This document shows positions 19,278-23,377 of a DNA stretch of 64,000 bases, piece by piece. The DNA is taken from assembly GCA_007375675.1 (NCBI GenBank), contig VMEU01000001.1:40458-104457 (forward strand), written 5' to 3'. The position numbers were made by a program, and so were the translations under genes. Origin of the DNA: Parcubacteria group bacterium Greene0416_39. GTDB lineage: Bacteria > Patescibacteriota > Minisyncoccia > Minisyncoccales > UBA10102. Each line of letters starts with the position of its first letter. Position 1 is the stretch's first letter. The notes beneath the pieces are model-generated. The model saw nothing but the letters and a program-made list of their open reading frames with translations, ran no database searches and was not told the DNA's origin.

Positions 19278-19730
19278 ATGAATTGCCCAATGTGTCAAAG
19301 TTCTTCAAAGGTTATAAACTCCAGGAGCGCAGACCATGGGAAAACCGTAAAAAGGCGCAGGGTTTGCATGAAATGCGCCAGGAGATTCACCACATATGAG
19401 CGCATAGAGCTTGTAAATGTCACGGTCTTAAAGCGCAGCGGGGCAAAAGAGCCTTACATGCGCCACAAGCTTCAGCTTGGGATGAGAAAGGCCTTGGAGA
19501 AGAGGCCGTATACCGAGCAGCAATTTGAAAGATTGGTCTCTGGGGCAGAAAATGATATTTTTAACAGGGAACACGATGTCATCTCTTCCGAACAAATTGG
19601 CCAGATTGTTCTTGCGCATTTGAAAGTATTTGATAAGGTTGCCTATCTGCGTTTTGCTTCCGTGTACCGGAGATTTGGGAGCACGAAAGCGTTTGAAAAA
19701 GAGATTGAAAAACTCGAAAAGGGAAAATGA
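19278..19730 (+). CDS. nrdR: Transcriptional repressor NrdR (zinc ribbon + ATP-cone)
   Basis: MNCPMCQSSSKVINSR...RRRVCMKCARRFTTYERIE; ATP-cone follows. Confidence 0.9.
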   Translation: MNCPMCQSSSKVINSRSADHGKTVKRRRVCMKCARRFTTYERIELVNVTVLKRSGAKEPYMRHKLQLGMRKALEKRPYTEQQFERLVSGAENDIFNREHDVISSEQIGQIVLAHLKVFDKVAYLRFASVYRRFGSTKAFEKEIEKLEKGK

Positions 19731-22700
19731 CTTCCATGCAAAAAAATCTTCTTGTACTCTCAAACAAAGAAAAGGGCGCGGTGAACGCCAGATTTTCTGA
19801 AAATGCTCTCAAGATGCTGCGCAAGCGCTATCTTGCTGTTGACGAGAAGGGAGTGCAGGAAACTGCAGCCGATATGTTTGCAAGAGTCGCAAGCGCGTTG
19901 GCAGCAGTGGAGAAAAACTACGGCAAGAAAGAACAGGATGTTAAAAAAGTCGCGCGGGATTTTTTTAACATCATGTCAACAAAAGAATACACTCCTGCGG
20001 GCCGCACGATCACCAATGGAGGAGGCGAAACCCCGGTTATTGCAAACTGCGTTGTCTTGCCTATTCATGATTCTATGGAGAGCATTTTTCAAACCCTCAA
20101 AGACGCGGCCTTGCTGCAGCAGGCAGGTTGCGGCCTTGGCTTTGATCTTTCTGAAATGCGGCCTGCTGACTTCCCTACAAGAAAATCTAGAGGGAGAGCT
20201 TCGGGTCCCGTTACTTTTTTGAAGGTGTATGACTATGCGTTTGGAACCATTAAGCAGCAGGGCAGGCACGGCGCGAATATGTCAATGATGAGGGTAGATC
20301 ACCCAGATGTTTTGGATTTTATTCATTGCAAAGAAGTGGAGGGTGAAATCCACAACTTCAACATTTCAGTCACCGTCACAGACGAGTTCATGGAACAGTT
20401 AGAGAAGAACCCCAACAAGCAGTGGTGGTGCGTATTCAATAACAAGAAATATAAGCCCAGAAAAGTGTTGCGCCATCCCAATGGGAGTGTGTACGGAACA
20501 GAGGAGGTAGATATTAGCGCAAAAGAGGTTTTTGACGAGTTGGTGAAAGGAGCGTGGACAAACGGAGAACCTGGCATTGCGTTTATTGACACGGTGAACA
20601 AAACCAATCCGCTTCCAGGTCTTGGCCCAATCGCAACGTCTAACCCGTGCGTGACAGGAGATACTCTCATACCCACTGAGCAAGGTTTTCTGACAATGGA
20701 GGAGCTCGTAGAGAGGTATGGCAAGGGCGGTGTCAAAATCGCAATCGATGTTCGTGTTCCCAAAACCATTGCCACTTCTCTTGTTGTGGAAAGTCTTATT
20801 GGCAATGGAGGAGAAGAAACAGTTCCTGTGCTGAATCTTTCGTTGTATGGAGAAGAAGGAGTGGGAGAAGTATCTAAAGCATGGAAGACAGGGGTGAAAG
20901 CAGTGTATAAGCTTACGACTCGTTCTGGCTACGAACTTGAAGCAACCGCGGAGCATGAAATTTTTACACCAAAAGGAAAGGTTCCTCTTGGGGAACTTCA
21001 GAAAGGAGATACGTTACTTCTTCAGTCGCGAGAAGGTCTTTGGAGCAACGAAGCGAAATTGCCCTTTACGTTTTCTAACGAGGTTCGAGGACGAAATGGC
21101 CACACGTATCGGTATAACTTTCCGACTGAATGGAGTCAACAGCTCGGGCAAGCCTTAGGATGGCTTATCGGAGACGGCTGGATACGAGAAAAACCAAAAC
21201 AAAACTGCGTAGGTTTTACCTTTGCAGAGGAAGATAAAAAAGTTTTACTGTATCTCAAAGAGATTTTAAACAAGTGGTATCGCAATAGCACTTCTCAAGA
21301 AATCAAAAGGCACAACGGAGTGTACCATTTAGTGTATGGTTCGAAAGATTTTATGCAATATATGAAGAACTTGGGAGTGAAAGCGGTACGTGCCCAAGGG
21401 AAAGAGGTGCCCTCTACTTTATGGAAAGCACCTAGAGAAGCAGTCATCGGATTTCTTCAGGGACTTTTTAGTTCCGACGGGACCATTAATATTTTTGAAC
21501 CAAATCAAACTCGGTATATCCGTCTCACCTCCAAGTCTGAGAAACTCCTCAAGGGAGTACAGCTCTTGCTACTGAATCTTGGCATTCGTTCAACCGTATA
21601 CAATAGAAGTAGGAAACCGAGTATGAAACTTGGATACCCCAACGACGGCGTACTCTTTGAGTTGCAGATTACGAAGACGAACATTCCGATATTCCTTAAG
21701 AAGATCGGATTTCTTGGAACCCATTACACAAAGAAAGCAGAGATACTTAGAACGTGCTCCTACTATCGAGAAACCTTTGAAGACAAGGTGAAAGAAATTC
21801 GGTTTGTTGGAACAAAGAAGGTGTATGACCTTACAGAATCCCTCTCCCATTCTTTGGTTGCAAATGGAATTGTCATATCAAATTGCGGCGAACAATATTT
21901 GCATCCGTATGACAACTGCAACTTGGGATCCATTAATCTTGCGGCATTTGTAAAACAGGGAAAAGTGGATTGGGCAAGACTCCGTTTTGTCACGAGAACC
22001 GCAACACGGCTCATGGACAATGTGATAGACGTTTTTGACTTTCCCGTAAAAGAAGTGACTGACTTAGCCAAGAATAACAGGAGGATTGGCTTGGGCATCA
22101 TGGGTTTTGCTGATATGCTCTATCAGCTTGGGGTGCGCTATGATTCCAAACAAGGATTTGCGTTAGGAGAAAAAGTTATGGGCTTTATTACTAATGAGGC
22201 CCATACAATGTCTGAGGAGTTGGCAAAAGAAAAAGGCGCATTTCCTAACATTGCAAAGAGCGTGTTTGCCAGATCCAAGAAAAAGATGCGCAACGCTGCC
22301 CTTACCACGGTTGCTCCCACAGGTTCTATCTCCATGATGTTTGACTGTTCTTCTGGCATTGAACCAAACTTTGCTCTTTCTTATGTGAAACAAGACAAAG
22401 ACGGCGTCCAATACCACTACCTTAACAAATACTTTGAGGAAGCGGTTGCCAAGTTGAAGCTTGCGGCAAAAGAAAAAGACGAGATTCTCCAGGAGGTTGT
22501 GGGAAAGGGGACCATACAGCATATTGGAAAGCTTCCAAAGGCATTGCGGGATACGTTCGTGATCTCCATGGATATTGTGGGACTTGACCATATGAAAATG
22601 CAGGCTGCGTTTCAGAAGCACGTTGATAACTCTATTTCCAAAACCGTCAACTTCCCAAATTCTGCGACCAGAGAAGATGTTGCCGGAAGTTTTGTAGCGG

Positions 22701-23377
22701 CTTGGAAGTTAGGGTGCAAATCAGCAACCGTGTATCGTGAAGGAAGCAGGGTGGTGCAGATTCTCAACCTTGGCACTGGAGAAAACCTTATTGCTCCCAC
22801 TGCGCTTGGAGTTGGGAAAGACAGCATAGAGAAACTCGACTTGCGCATGGACCAGCAACGTTTGGCCTCAAGGCCAAGGCCAGAGGTGATGACAGGCAAA
22901 ACCTACCGTGTGAAAACAGGGTACGGGAATCTATACGTTACCGTGAACAACGATGAAAAAGGAGTGCCTTTTGAGGTTTTTGCAACCATTGGGAAAAATG
23001 GAGGGTTTTTCCAGGAACAGTCAGAGGCCATATGCAGAATGATCTCTCTTGTGTTAAGAACAGGGGTAAAAATTGAAGAAGTGGTGGAGCAACTAAAGGG
23101 CATTAGAGGGCCAATGCCCATATTCACAGACAAAGGCACTATTCTTTCTCTGCCTGACGCCTTAGGCCGTATTCTTGAAGACCACGTGAAGTTTGCTCCA
23201 AGAGTGGAAGAAGCAGTTGCGAGGCCCGAGAGACAGGAAGTACTTCCTTTTATAGAAAAAAAACAGACCATTGCTGAAATGGGTTTTATGCCAGGATGCC
23301 CTGACTGCGGCTCCCCTTTACTGATGTCTGAAGGATGCATTAGCTGCAAGGAGTGCGGATTTAGCCGCTGTATGTAA
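19727..23377 (+). CDS. nrdJ: Class II (adenosylcobalamin-dependent) ribonucleotide reductase NrdJ, interrupted by an intein
   Basis: RNR catalytic motif split as ...ATSNP | intein | [19 protein letters not shown]; C-terminal zinc ribbon CPDCG...CKECG; 1216 aa including a 412-aa intein. Confidence 0.9.
   Translation: [1216 protein letters not shown]
20648..21883 (+). mobile_element. Intein in NrdJ with LAGLIDADG homing-endonuclease domain
   Basis: Begins Cys (CVTGDTLI, Hint block A); ends ...GIVISN with +1 Cys; two LAGLIDADG motifs [10 protein letters not shown] and [12 protein letters not shown]. In frame: 20648-19727=921 and 21884-19727=2157. Confidence 0.85.

What the first reader, a model, noticed from the sequence alone, without database searches (positions are those of the whole stretch)
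19727..23377. Three inteins in three essential genes within 20 kb (NrdJ, FtsH, GyrA)
The NrdJ intein (20648-21883) is inserted in the catalytic SNP|CGEQ loop and keeps two LAGLIDADG motifs. The FtsH intein (29799-31154) is inserted between IVMGA and TNRPD, starts with Ser, ends with Asn, is followed by Thr, and has degenerate LAGLIDADG-like motifs. The GyrA intein (36238-36891) is a 218-aa mini-intein between GQGNFG and SIDDDP, which is not the classic AMRY|T site of the mycobacterial GyrA intein. All are in frame, and removing them restores canonical host proteins (~804, ~620 and ~815 aa). Together with the tRNA introns this is a high load of self-splicing elements.
Basis: partly seen in the sequence, partly recalled or inferred. 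Interest (0 to 1): 0.55.

Follow-up and report, generated by a model that had tools for sequence, protein, structure and literature searches.

The report
Three ordinary inteins in essential genes
Three housekeeping genes of an uncultured Parcubacteria (CPR) bacterium, nrdJ, ftsH and gyrA, each carry a genuine self-splicing intein, but each intein sits at a site that many other microbes also use, so this is a dense but ordinary example of a known element.

Summary
NrdJ (19727-23377, +) holds a 412-aa intein at 20648-21883. FtsH (28863-32081, -) holds a 452-aa intein at 29799-31154. GyrA (35893-38994, +) holds a 218-aa mini-intein at 36238-36891. Removing them leaves 804, 620 and 815 aa that align without a gap to solved intein-free orthologues.

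All three score above the curated cut-offs of Pfam Intein_splicing and NCBIfam intein_Nterm. Each has the N-terminal Cys or Ser, a TxxH block B, a terminal Asn and a +1 Cys, Thr or Ser. The NrdJ and FtsH inteins keep both LAGLIDADG motifs with their acidic residues. The GyrA intein has a roughly 75-aa disordered linker where relatives carry an HNH-like motif.

None of the sites is new. The NrdJ site, just before the thiyl-radical Cys, is described in the literature as the commonest site for RNR inteins. The GyrA GQGNFG|S site recurs in about 50 of the 80 best genome loci. The FtsH AA|TNRPD site recurs in dozens of metagenomic FtsH and AAA+ proteins, although I found no paper describing it.

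The contig is public (Parcubacteria bacterium Greene1014_47). Verdict: real inteins, new members of known kinds, modest interest.

The parts
19727..23377 (+). nrdJ precursor ORF (class II, B12-dependent ribonucleotide reductase), 1216 aa; 804 aa after splicing. nrdR lies just upstream at 19263-19730.
   Evidence: ORF list. Pfam Ribonuc_red_lgN, Ribonuc_red_lgC and TSCPD. Aligns to T. maritima NrdJ 1xje on both sides of the insert. The upstream gene carries NrdR zinc-ribbon and ATP-cone domains.
20648..21883 (+). NrdJ intein, 412 aa, class 1, with a LAGLIDADG homing endonuclease domain. It has Cys1, block B TAEH (20945-20956), LAGLIDADG motifs LGWLIGDGW (21155-21181) and [11 protein letters not shown] (21452-21484), and blocks F/G [21 protein letters not shown] (21821-21883). 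The penultimate residue is Ser, not His, and the -1 residue is Pro.
   Evidence: Same-site homologues end in (S/H)N|CGE.
21884..21886 (+). The +1 Cys of the NrdJ C-extein. It is the splicing nucleophile and also the residue that aligns with Cys322 of T. maritima NrdJ in the NPCGE active-site loop.
   Evidence: One search aligns query SNC-GEQ with NPCGEI at residues 320-325. Assigning Cys322 as the thiyl-radical site rests on established knowledge, and the site description comes from PMC2677866.
28863..32081 (-). ftsH precursor ORF, 1072 aa; 620 aa after splicing. Its last 38 nt overlap the tRNA-Ile(UAU) gene at 28825-28900.
   Evidence: ORF list. Pfam FtsH_ext, AAA, AAA_lid_3 and Peptidase_M41. 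Aligns to FtsH 7tdo as query 10-309 and 757-1056. tRNA.
29799..31154 (-). FtsH intein, 452 aa, class 1 with oxygen nucleophiles (Ser1 and Thr+1). It is inserted directly before the TNRPD sensor-1 / second-region-of-homology motif of the AAA+ module. It has block B TGNH (30858-30869), a weak HTH-like segment (30546-30617), LAGLIDADG motifs [10 protein letters not shown] (30426-30455) and [11 protein letters not shown] (30144-30176), and blocks F/G ending in LLHN (29799-29867).
   Evidence: AlphaFold model with pLDDT 88.9. Best structural matches are the intein endonucleases TliVMA, PI-PkoII, PhoVMA, PI-PfuI and PI-SceI.
35893..38994 (+). gyrA precursor ORF, 1033 aa; 815 aa after splicing.
   Evidence: Aligns to GyrA structures as query 9-116 and 334/336-1030.
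36238..36891 (+). GyrA mini-intein, 218 aa, class 1 (Cys1, block B TPDH at 36457-36468, blocks F/G VYDITVDPWHNFALAAGIFVHN at 36826-36891, Ser+1). It is inserted at E. coli G110|S111, 11 residues before the catalytic Tyr122.
   Evidence: The model's HINT core (aa 1-104 and 180-218) has block-mean pLDDT of 88 or more. The top 50 Foldseek matches are all HINT-fold domains, nearly all inteins.
36550..36774 (+). A 75-aa low-confidence, apparently disordered linker inside the GyrA intein, at the position where same-site relatives carry an HNH-like endonuclease motif. No endonuclease motif remains.
   Evidence: pLDDT below 50 for aa 105-179. Relatives P0005, P0014 and P0003 carry ...GR(I/V)RHHxDFNKxNNNPxN. 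Same-site inteins range from 141 to about 527 aa.

Best explanation
The three inserts are canonical class 1 inteins, acquired independently, in nrdJ, ftsH and gyrA of a Parcubacteria (CPR) genome. Each precursor is translated in full. The intein folds into a HINT domain and then removes itself in four steps. First, an N-S or N-O acyl shift occurs at Cys1 (NrdJ, GyrA) or Ser1 (FtsH), assisted by the block B Thr-x-x-His. Second, the N-extein is transferred by trans-esterification onto the +1 Cys (NrdJ), Thr (FtsH) or Ser (GyrA). Third, the terminal Asn cyclises and releases the intein. Fourth, an acyl shift restores a normal peptide bond. The products are active 804-aa NrdJ, 620-aa FtsH and 815-aa GyrA. 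All three inteins interrupt active-site elements: the thiyl-radical Cys loop of NrdJ, the AAA+ sensor-1 motif of FtsH, and the segment 11 residues before the catalytic Tyr of GyrA. The host enzymes should therefore be inactive until they are spliced. At the DNA level, the NrdJ and FtsH inteins carry two-motif LAGLIDADG endonucleases with both acidic residues retained. These probably cut intein-free alleles at the same conserved site and spread by gene conversion (homing). The GyrA intein has lost its endonuclease, which appears HNH-like in relatives, and is now a passively inherited mini-intein. What is shown: the sequence and fold membership, the catalytic residues, the exact sites, and the recurrence of these sites in other genomes. 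What is inferred: actual splicing, endonuclease activity and homing.
For: Boundaries are exact and in frame, and the spliced lengths are 804, 620 and 815 aa. Pfam Intein_splicing is above the gathering score in all three, and LAGLIDADG_3 is above it in two. NCBIfam TIGR01445 intein_Nterm is above its cut-off in all three, and TIGR01443 is above it for GyrA. Sequence matches to solved inteins: PI-PkoII at 2e-19 plus VMA and TFIIB inteins for FtsH; NrdJ-1 and DnaE inteins for GyrA; DnaB mini-inteins and PI-PkoII for NrdJ. The AlphaFold model of the FtsH intein (pLDDT 88.9) matches the TliVMA intein at E = 2.9e-23 and other intein endonucleases. The GyrA intein core matches NpuDnaE and NrdJ-1 with TM about 0.8. 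Exteins align without a gap to intein-free solved orthologues across each junction. Cys1 or Ser1, TxxH, terminal Asn and the +1 nucleophile are all present. The endonuclease residues E241 and D335 of the FtsH intein are at least 90% conserved in 20 homologues. Same-site inteins are found in many other genomes. The three inteins are at most 25% identical to each other, which points to separate acquisitions. Intein GC3 is 0.40-0.42 against 0.485-0.498 for the exteins.
Against: No experiment or proteomic data shows that splicing occurs. The NrdJ intein has Ser rather than His before the terminal Asn and Pro at -1, features that slow some model inteins. However, both are shared by many same-site NrdJ inteins. 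The FtsH intein lacks the block F His (NEAF where NHNF is typical). The window is one contig of a metagenome-assembled genome. The public record as held here differs from it by a 38-nt deletion that splits ftsH, so the state of ftsH in the real population is not fully certain.
Confidence: 0.92

Rival explanations
1. The inserts are ordinary lineage-specific insertions or extra domains, without a HINT fold and without splicing.
For: None found.
Against: Curated intein profiles score above their cut-offs. Solved inteins are matched by sequence and by fold. All splice-junction residues are present. The inserts also cut through active-site motifs, which would be lethal if they were never removed.
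Confidence: 0.01
2. They are real inteins, but at least one is splicing-defective or only cleaves. The host gene would then be a pseudogene or be backed up by a second copy elsewhere in the genome.
For: NrdJ has a penultimate Ser and a -1 Pro, and FtsH lacks the block F His. The public record as held here has a frameshifted ftsH. Only 64 kb of the genome was examined, so paralogues cannot be excluded.
Against: The same unusual residues are conserved across many same-site inteins, for example VISN|CGEQ and VVSN|CGEQ. The exteins show no sign of decay and score 1e-95 to 1e-207 against solved orthologues. In the window ftsH is intact, and the extra 38 nt encode the Walker B motif IIFIDELDA.
Confidence: 0.06
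3. The inteins are not only parasites. They also act as conditional switches (redox, temperature or substrate) that time the activation of dNTP synthesis, proteolysis and DNA supercoiling in this reduced genome.
For: All three interrupt catalytic elements. The NrdJ +1 nucleophile is the catalytic Cys itself. Conditional splicing is documented for other inteins, for example Pho RadA (PMC4513877, listed). Intein clustering in replication-related proteins has been argued to be functional (PMC4760082).
Against: Nothing in the sequence specifically indicates regulation. Insertion at conserved sites is equally explained by homing-endonuclease target choice. The GyrA mini-intein and the length polymorphism of its relatives (141 to about 527 aa) fit the classic cycle of invasion followed by decay.
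Confidence: 0.1
4. The arrangement is an assembly or binning artefact, with intein DNA from other organisms joined into the contig.
For: The sequence comes from a metagenome-assembled genome, and two small indels separate the window from the public record as held here.
Against: There are three precise in-frame insertions with perfect splice junctions. Identity to the public contig is 100% over the rest of 22 kb. The same architectures occur in independent assemblies, for example P0178 and L002-L081.
Confidence: 0.01

Closest known systems
Contiguous RNR (RIR1/NrdJ/NrdA) inteins inserted directly N-terminal to the thiyl-radical Cys, such as the inteins modelled in NCBIfam NF006207 (B12-dependent RNR with inteins)
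   Same: The site is identical ((S/T)NP|C-GE). The intein is a class 1 HINT domain with a two-motif LAGLIDADG endonuclease. It shares 40-50% identity with many same-site NrdJ inteins from archaea and bacteria and matches the intein part of NF006207 at 1.3e-32. The literature calls this the most frequent site for contiguous RNR inteins (PMC2677866).
   Different: This is a new host lineage (Parcubacteria). The penultimate residue is Ser instead of His, a trait shared with part of the family. No relative above 50% identity was found.
NrdJ-1 split intein (GOS metagenome; PDB 8ubs)
   Same: It occupies the same host enzyme class and the same catalytic loop.
   Different: NrdJ-1 sits one residue further C-terminal and is naturally split (PMC2677866). 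By sequence it is closest to the GyrA mini-intein of this window (3.4e-9), not to the NrdJ intein.
Mycobacterial GyrA inteins (Mxe GyrA type, AMRY|T site)
   Same: The host protein and region are the same, next to the DNA-cleaving Tyr. Both are class 1 inteins with Cys1 and occur as mini-inteins.
   Different: The site differs, lying 11 residues upstream at E. coli G110|S111. The +1 residue is Ser rather than Thr. No detectable sequence match was found to the Mxe GyrA structure or to NCBIfam GyrA_w_intein. One metagenomic GyrA (P0016) carries inteins at both sites.
GyrB inteins at EGDSAGG|S, and the wider CFxGDT...FVHN|S intein family (also in dCTP deaminase and a phage baseplate protein)
   Same: These are the closest sequence relatives of the GyrA intein outside GyrA, at 31-48% identity with the same block sequences.
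   Different: The host protein and insertion site are different.
Archaeal LAGLIDADG intein endonucleases PI-PkoII (2cw7), TliVMA/PhoVMA (7qsu, 7qss, 7qst), PI-PfuI (1dq3) and PI-SceI
   Same: These are the best sequence and structure matches of the FtsH intein. They share the HINT plus two-motif LAGLIDADG architecture.
   Different: Identity is only 14-19%. The host (FtsH AAA+ sensor-1 site) differs, and the FtsH intein uses Ser1/Thr+1 oxygen nucleophiles.
Unnamed metagenomic FtsH/AAA+ inteins (e.g. P0178, P0033, P0035; archaeal Cdc48 P0180)
   Same: They share the same site (xAA|S(V/I)TG(D/E)T...LLHN|TN(R/I)P) and 55-66% identity.
   Different: Some relatives occupy a second FtsH site (GVGA|S...HN|SRVRD) that is empty here. 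Some FtsH proteins carry two inteins.

Membership tests
Intein (class 1 protein-splicing element) | HINT-fold splicing domain with blocks A, B, F and G | tested here: met
   Pfam PF14890 is above the gathering score for all three. TIGR01445 is above its cut-off for all three. The predicted structures of the FtsH and GyrA inteins match solved inteins. The NrdJ intein matches DnaB mini-inteins by sequence; no structure was predicted for it.
Intein (class 1 protein-splicing element) | First residue is Cys or Ser, and block B carries Thr-x-x-His | tested here: met
   Cys1 with TAEH (NrdJ), Ser1 with TGNH (FtsH), Cys1 with TPDH (GyrA).
Intein (class 1 protein-splicing element) | C-terminal Asn (usually His-Asn) followed by a +1 Cys, Ser or Thr | tested here: met
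   ISN|C (NrdJ; the penultimate Ser is a variant shared by same-site relatives), LHN|T (FtsH), VHN|S (GyrA).
Intein (class 1 protein-splicing element) | In-frame insertion in a conserved host site, with removal restoring a contiguous orthologue | tested here: met
   Alignments to 1xje (NrdJ), 7tdo (FtsH), and 8s7k and 6rks (GyrA) stop and resume exactly at the junctions.
Intein (class 1 protein-splicing element) | Autocatalytic excision and extein ligation | not testable with these tools
   This needs expression and mass spectrometry, or metaproteomics.
Two-motif LAGLIDADG homing endonuclease (intein-encoded) | Two LAGLIDADG motifs, each ending in an acidic residue followed by Gly | tested here: met
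   NrdJ has LGWLIGDGW and [11 protein letters not shown]. FtsH has [10 protein letters not shown] and [11 protein letters not shown]. PF14528 matches with two stretches in each. E241 and D335 of the FtsH intein are at least 90% conserved. The GyrA intein has none.
Two-motif LAGLIDADG homing endonuclease (intein-encoded) | Site-specific cleavage of the intein-free allele | not testable with these tools
   This needs an in vitro cleavage assay.
RNR inteins at the thiyl-radical Cys site | Insertion directly N-terminal to the catalytic Cys of the NPC/NLC loop | tested here: met
   The +1 Cys aligns with T. maritima NrdJ Cys322. The site definition is from PMC2677866.
Mycobacterial-type GyrA intein | Insertion at AMRY|T next to the catalytic Tyr | tested here: not met
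   The insertion is at GQGNFG|S, 11 residues upstream, and the AAMRY motif is intact downstream.
Mycobacterial-type GyrA intein | Sequence similarity to Mxe/Mle GyrA inteins (NCBIfam NF038098) | tested here: not met
   The GyrA intein has no hit to NF038098 and no Mxe GyrA chain among its PDB sequence hits.
Bacterial intein-like (BIL) domain | HINT domain in a variable, non-conserved protein, usually without a +1 nucleophile or a conserved host site | tested here: not met
   All three sit in universally conserved motifs of essential enzymes and have +1 Cys, Thr or Ser.

The most novel reading that the evidence does not exclude
The FtsH intein belongs to a widespread intein lineage that I could not find described in the searchable literature. 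It begins S(V/I)TG(D/E)TP and ends FFGGExPxLLHN. It has colonised homologous sites of different AAA+ proteins across domains: bacterial FtsH at two sites (GVGA|S and AA|TN), D1 of archaeal Cdc48-like ATPases, and a fungal Yme1. CPR bacteria and DPANN archaea from the same kinds of habitat share closely related inteins for all three genes, which would make these episymbionts a cross-domain reservoir and exchange hub for self-splicing elements.
Probability: 0.3. Interest if true: 0.4.

Novelty: new member of a known kind. Interest (0 to 1): 0.25.

Why it matters
This is a clean, correctly read example of intein clustering in replication and housekeeping enzymes, here in an ultra-small CPR genome. 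Three essential proteins must splice themselves before they can work. It has practical value in three ways. It flags an annotation problem, because the public record as held here splits ftsH into two genes and names no intein. It provides a compact Cys1/Ser+1 mini-intein and a Ser1/Thr+1 cysteine-free-junction intein that could interest protein engineers. It also points to an FtsH/AAA+ intein lineage that is common in metagenomes but that I could not find described. It does not reveal a new mechanism.

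Tried and rejected
1. I looked for more inteins in the other large ORFs of the window with Pfam and found none.

2. I looked for further self-splicing introns with Rfam, at the gathering threshold and at E <= 0.01.

3. I tested whether the three inteins are copies of one another. They are not: identity is at most 25%, and only across the endonuclease domain of the NrdJ and FtsH inteins.

4. 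I searched the literature for an FtsH, Yme1 or Cdc48 intein and for inteins in CPR or Patescibacteria. No paper described them. The hits that mention both FtsH and inteins concern other genes. The supplementary tables of the main intein survey (PMC4760082) are not held, so I cannot say whether FtsH or the GyrA G|S site is listed there or in InBase.

5. I tested whether ORF 26262-26960, next to the intron-bearing tRNA, is a homing endonuclease. Only weak N-terminal HTH matches were found, so this is unresolved.

6. I rejected the insertion, BIL-domain and assembly-artefact readings (see the rival explanations and the membership test).

Full report
**Observation**

The region holds three unusually long ORFs: NrdJ at 19727-23377 (+, 1216 aa), FtsH at 28863-32081 (-, 1072 aa) and GyrA at 35893-38994 (+, 1033 aa).
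- The NrdJ intein is aa 308-719 (nt 20648-21883, 412 aa), with junctions SNP|CVTGDT...[10 protein letters not shown].
- The FtsH intein is aa 310-761 (nt 29799-31154, 452 aa), with junctions IVMGA|SVTGDT...ILLHN|TNRPD.
- The GyrA intein is aa 116-333 (nt 36238-36891, 218 aa), with junctions GQGNFG|CFTKDT...IFVHN|SIDDDP.

**Are they inteins?**

Family profiles say yes.
- Pfam Intein_splicing (PF14890) scores above its gathering cut-off in all three precursors (E = 2e-13, 1.4e-11, 8e-21).
- LAGLIDADG_3 scores above its cut-off in the NrdJ and FtsH inserts (3.8e-22 and 5e-11, two stretches each).
- NCBIfam TIGR01445 (intein N-terminal region) passes its cut-off for all three. TIGR01443 (C-terminal region) passes for GyrA. 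The NrdJ insert matches the intein segment of the intein-containing B12-dependent RNR model NF006207 at 1.3e-32.

Each insert on its own also finds solved inteins by sequence.
- The FtsH insert matches PI-PkoII (2e-19) and VMA, TFIIB and RadA inteins.
- The GyrA insert matches the NrdJ-1 split intein (3e-9) and DnaE inteins.
- The NrdJ insert matches DnaB mini-inteins and PI-PkoII.

Predicted structures agree for the two inteins that were modelled.
- The AlphaFold model of the FtsH intein (pLDDT 88.9, pTM 0.87) has as its best PDB matches the full-length intein endonucleases TliVMA (E = 2.9e-23, TM 0.79 on the target), PI-PkoII, PhoVMA, PI-PfuI and PI-SceI.
- The GyrA model has a confident HINT core (aa 1-104 and 180-218, block-mean pLDDT of 88 or more). 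A roughly 75-aa stretch (aa 105-179) has pLDDT below 50.
- Its 50 best PDB matches are all HINT-fold domains, nearly all inteins. NpuDnaE and NrdJ-1 reach TM about 0.8.

No structure was predicted for the NrdJ intein.

**Catalytic inventory**

- NrdJ intein: Cys1, block B TAEH, blocks F/G [21 protein letters not shown], and +1 Cys. The penultimate residue is Ser, not His, and the -1 residue is Pro.
- FtsH intein: Ser1, block B TGNH, blocks [25 protein letters not shown], and +1 Thr.
- GyrA intein: Cys1, block B TPDH, blocks F/G VYDITVDPWHNFALAAGIFVHN, and +1 Ser.

All three are therefore class 1 inteins.

The LAGLIDADG motifs keep their acidic residues. NrdJ has LGWLIGDGW and [11 protein letters not shown]. 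FtsH has [10 protein letters not shown] and [11 protein letters not shown]. In an alignment of 20 FtsH-type inteins, E241 and D335 are at least 90% conserved and the flanking Gly residues are invariant. 'Degenerate' is therefore too pessimistic for the FtsH endonuclease.

**Host continuity and site mapping**

- Against T. maritima NrdJ (1xje), the alignment runs up to SNPC and resumes at (S)NCGEQ. The +1 Cys falls on Cys322 of the NPCGE loop. The splicing nucleophile is thus the catalytic cysteine itself. Assigning Cys322 as the thiyl-radical residue rests on established knowledge.
- Against FtsH 7tdo, the precursor aligns as 10-309 and 757-1056, with the break directly before TNRPD. This is the sensor-1 / second-region-of-homology motif of the AAA+ module (established knowledge).
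- Against GyrA structures, the precursor aligns as 9-116 and 334/336-1030. Residue 334 corresponds to E. coli Ser111. This is 11 residues before the catalytic Tyr122, and it is not the mycobacterial AMRY|T site.

**Source**

The FtsH intein is 100% identical to a protein of 'Parcubacteria group bacterium Greene1014_47'. The contig is VMGR01000003.1 of GCA_007376645.1.

**How common are these sites?**

NrdJ. Homologues at 40-50% identity occur in NrdJ of many archaea and bacteria, and the junctions recovered are at the same junction, (S/T)NP|C...(S/H)N|CGE. Many share the penultimate Ser. [quoted passage not shown] RNR is the second most common bacterial intein host in the survey of Novikova et al. 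(PMC4760082).

GyrA.
- Metagenomic GyrA fragments from Omnitrophota, Buchananbacteria and others carry GQGN(F/M)G|CFT(K/G)DT.
- A scan of species-representative genomes with the intein alignment gave at least 588 related loci. Of the best 80, about 50 sit at this exact GyrA site. About 30 sit at the GyrB EG(D/N/E)SAGG|S site, and one sits in an unidentified host.
- The GyrA-site hosts include many CPR groups, DPANN archaea, Thermoplasmatales, Methanosarcinales, Gammaproteobacteria, Acidobacteriota and Chloroflexi, including the cultured Herpetosiphon giganteus DSM 589.
- Intein lengths at this site range from 141 to about 527 aa. The long forms recovered carry an HNH-like motif...GR(I/V)RHHxDFNKxNNNPxN.
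- The 218-aa intein here, with its disordered linker, looks like a decayed intermediate between the long and minimal forms.
- One fragment (P0016) has inteins at both GQGNFG|S and AMRY|.

FtsH.
- 90 database clusters match. About 40 show the same junctions, xAA|S(V/I)TG(D/E)T...LLHN|TNRPD.
- A related set uses a second FtsH site, GVGA|S...LLHN|SRVRD. That site is empty here.
- Archaeal Cdc48-type ATPases carry the intein at the homologous sensor-1 position (P0053, P0180). A fungal Yme1 (P0087) carries one at the first site.
- An exhaustive HMMER search of 1.84 billion representative proteins found 55 clusters at E <= 1e-30. These include a 1065-aa FtsH with the same architecture as this one (P0178) and FtsH proteins with two inteins (P0176, P0177, P0179).
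- I found no paper describing an FtsH intein.

**Origin**

The three inteins are not copies of one another. NrdJ and FtsH share 25% identity over the endonuclease domain only, and the other pairs show no significant match. This points to three separate acquisitions. Intein GC3 (0.40-0.42) is lower than extein GC3 (0.485-0.498) in all three genes. That is weakly consistent with a foreign origin or with different selective constraint. No further inteins were found in the other large ORFs of the window.

**Mechanism**

Each precursor is translated whole, and each intein removes itself by the four-step class 1 pathway:
1. An acyl shift at Cys1 or Ser1.
2. Trans-esterification to the +1 Cys, Thr or Ser.
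3. Cyclisation of the terminal Asn.
4. A final acyl shift that restores a normal peptide bond.

Because each insert splits an active-site element, the enzymes should be inactive until they are spliced. The LAGLIDADG domains of the NrdJ and FtsH inteins probably still cut intein-free alleles and drive homing. The GyrA intein cannot, and is inherited passively.

Membership, residues and sites are shown here. Splicing, cleavage and homing are inferred.

**Verdict**

These are new members of known intein kinds, sitting at recurrent sites, on a public contig. The density (three inteins and one group I intron within about 16 kb of a CPR genome) is notable but not exceptional. The only part that may be undescribed is the FtsH/AAA+ intein lineage. 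Interest is modest.

Noticed in passing
window 25969-26251 (-): A tRNA-Phe(GAA) gene is interrupted in its anticodon loop, after U33, by a 210-nt group I intron (intron 26010-26219; Rfam Intron_gpI 64.6 bits). ARAGORN misses the gene until the intron is removed in silico, after which it folds as a normal 73-nt tRNA-Phe. It is the only group I intron found in the window.
   Followed up: yes
window 26262-26960 (-): A 232-aa ORF ends 10 nt upstream of the intron-bearing tRNA-Phe. It has only weak N-terminal HTH matches and no family assignment. It contains a LAGLIDADG-like string (LIGTALYWGEGY), so it could be a free-standing endonuclease-like gene linked to the intron, but this is unproven.
   Followed up: partly
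window 31281-31318 (ftsH, -) and about 25854: The public record VMGR01000003.1, as held in the assembly collection, lacks 38 nt that the window has. These bases encode the Walker B motif IIFIDELDA. In the public record ftsH is therefore called as two genes of 285 and 778 aa in different frames. A second 5-nt indel lies near 25854. Everything else is 100% identical over 22 kb. This is either an assembly error or a population variant.
   Followed up: partly
window 28825-28900 (-): The last 38 nt of the ftsH ORF (stop codon at 28863-28865) overlap a same-strand tRNA-Ile gene with the rare anticodon UAU. The FtsH tail ...[13 protein letters not shown] is read from tRNA sequence.
   Followed up: no
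related proteins P0051, P0055, P0059, P0083, P0087, P0176: A second insertion site in FtsH (GVGA|S...LLHN|SRVRD, between Walker A and B) is used by the same intein lineage in Chloroflexi, Deltaproteobacteria, Firmicutes, Omnitrophota and a fungal Yme1 (Dipsacomyces). The site is empty in this window ([13 protein letters not shown]). Some FtsH proteins carry inteins at both sites.
   Followed up: partly
related protein P0177: An FtsH of 1499 aa carries an unrelated intein inside the Walker A P-loop (GCGK|CITGET...INHN|TLLARAV) as well as the sensor-1 intein.
   Followed up: no
related protein P0016: A metagenomic GyrA fragment carries two inteins only 11 residues apart: a mini-intein at GQGNFG|S and a second one starting at AMRY|CVTGDT, the classic mycobacterial site.
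   Followed up: no
loci L002-L081: The CFxGDT...FVHN|S intein family is shared between GyrA (G|S site) and GyrB (EGDSAGG|S site), and between CPR bacteria and DPANN or other archaea. The best whole-length match to the window's GyrA intein is in a Micrarchaeota genome (47% identity). This hints at cross-domain exchange, although taxonomic labels of metagenome-assembled genomes may be unreliable.
   Followed up: partly
window 1-64000: tRNA gene density is very high, with 19 tRNA genes found by ARAGORN plus the intron-split tRNA-Phe in 64 kb, often in tight pairs or triplets.
   Followed up: no
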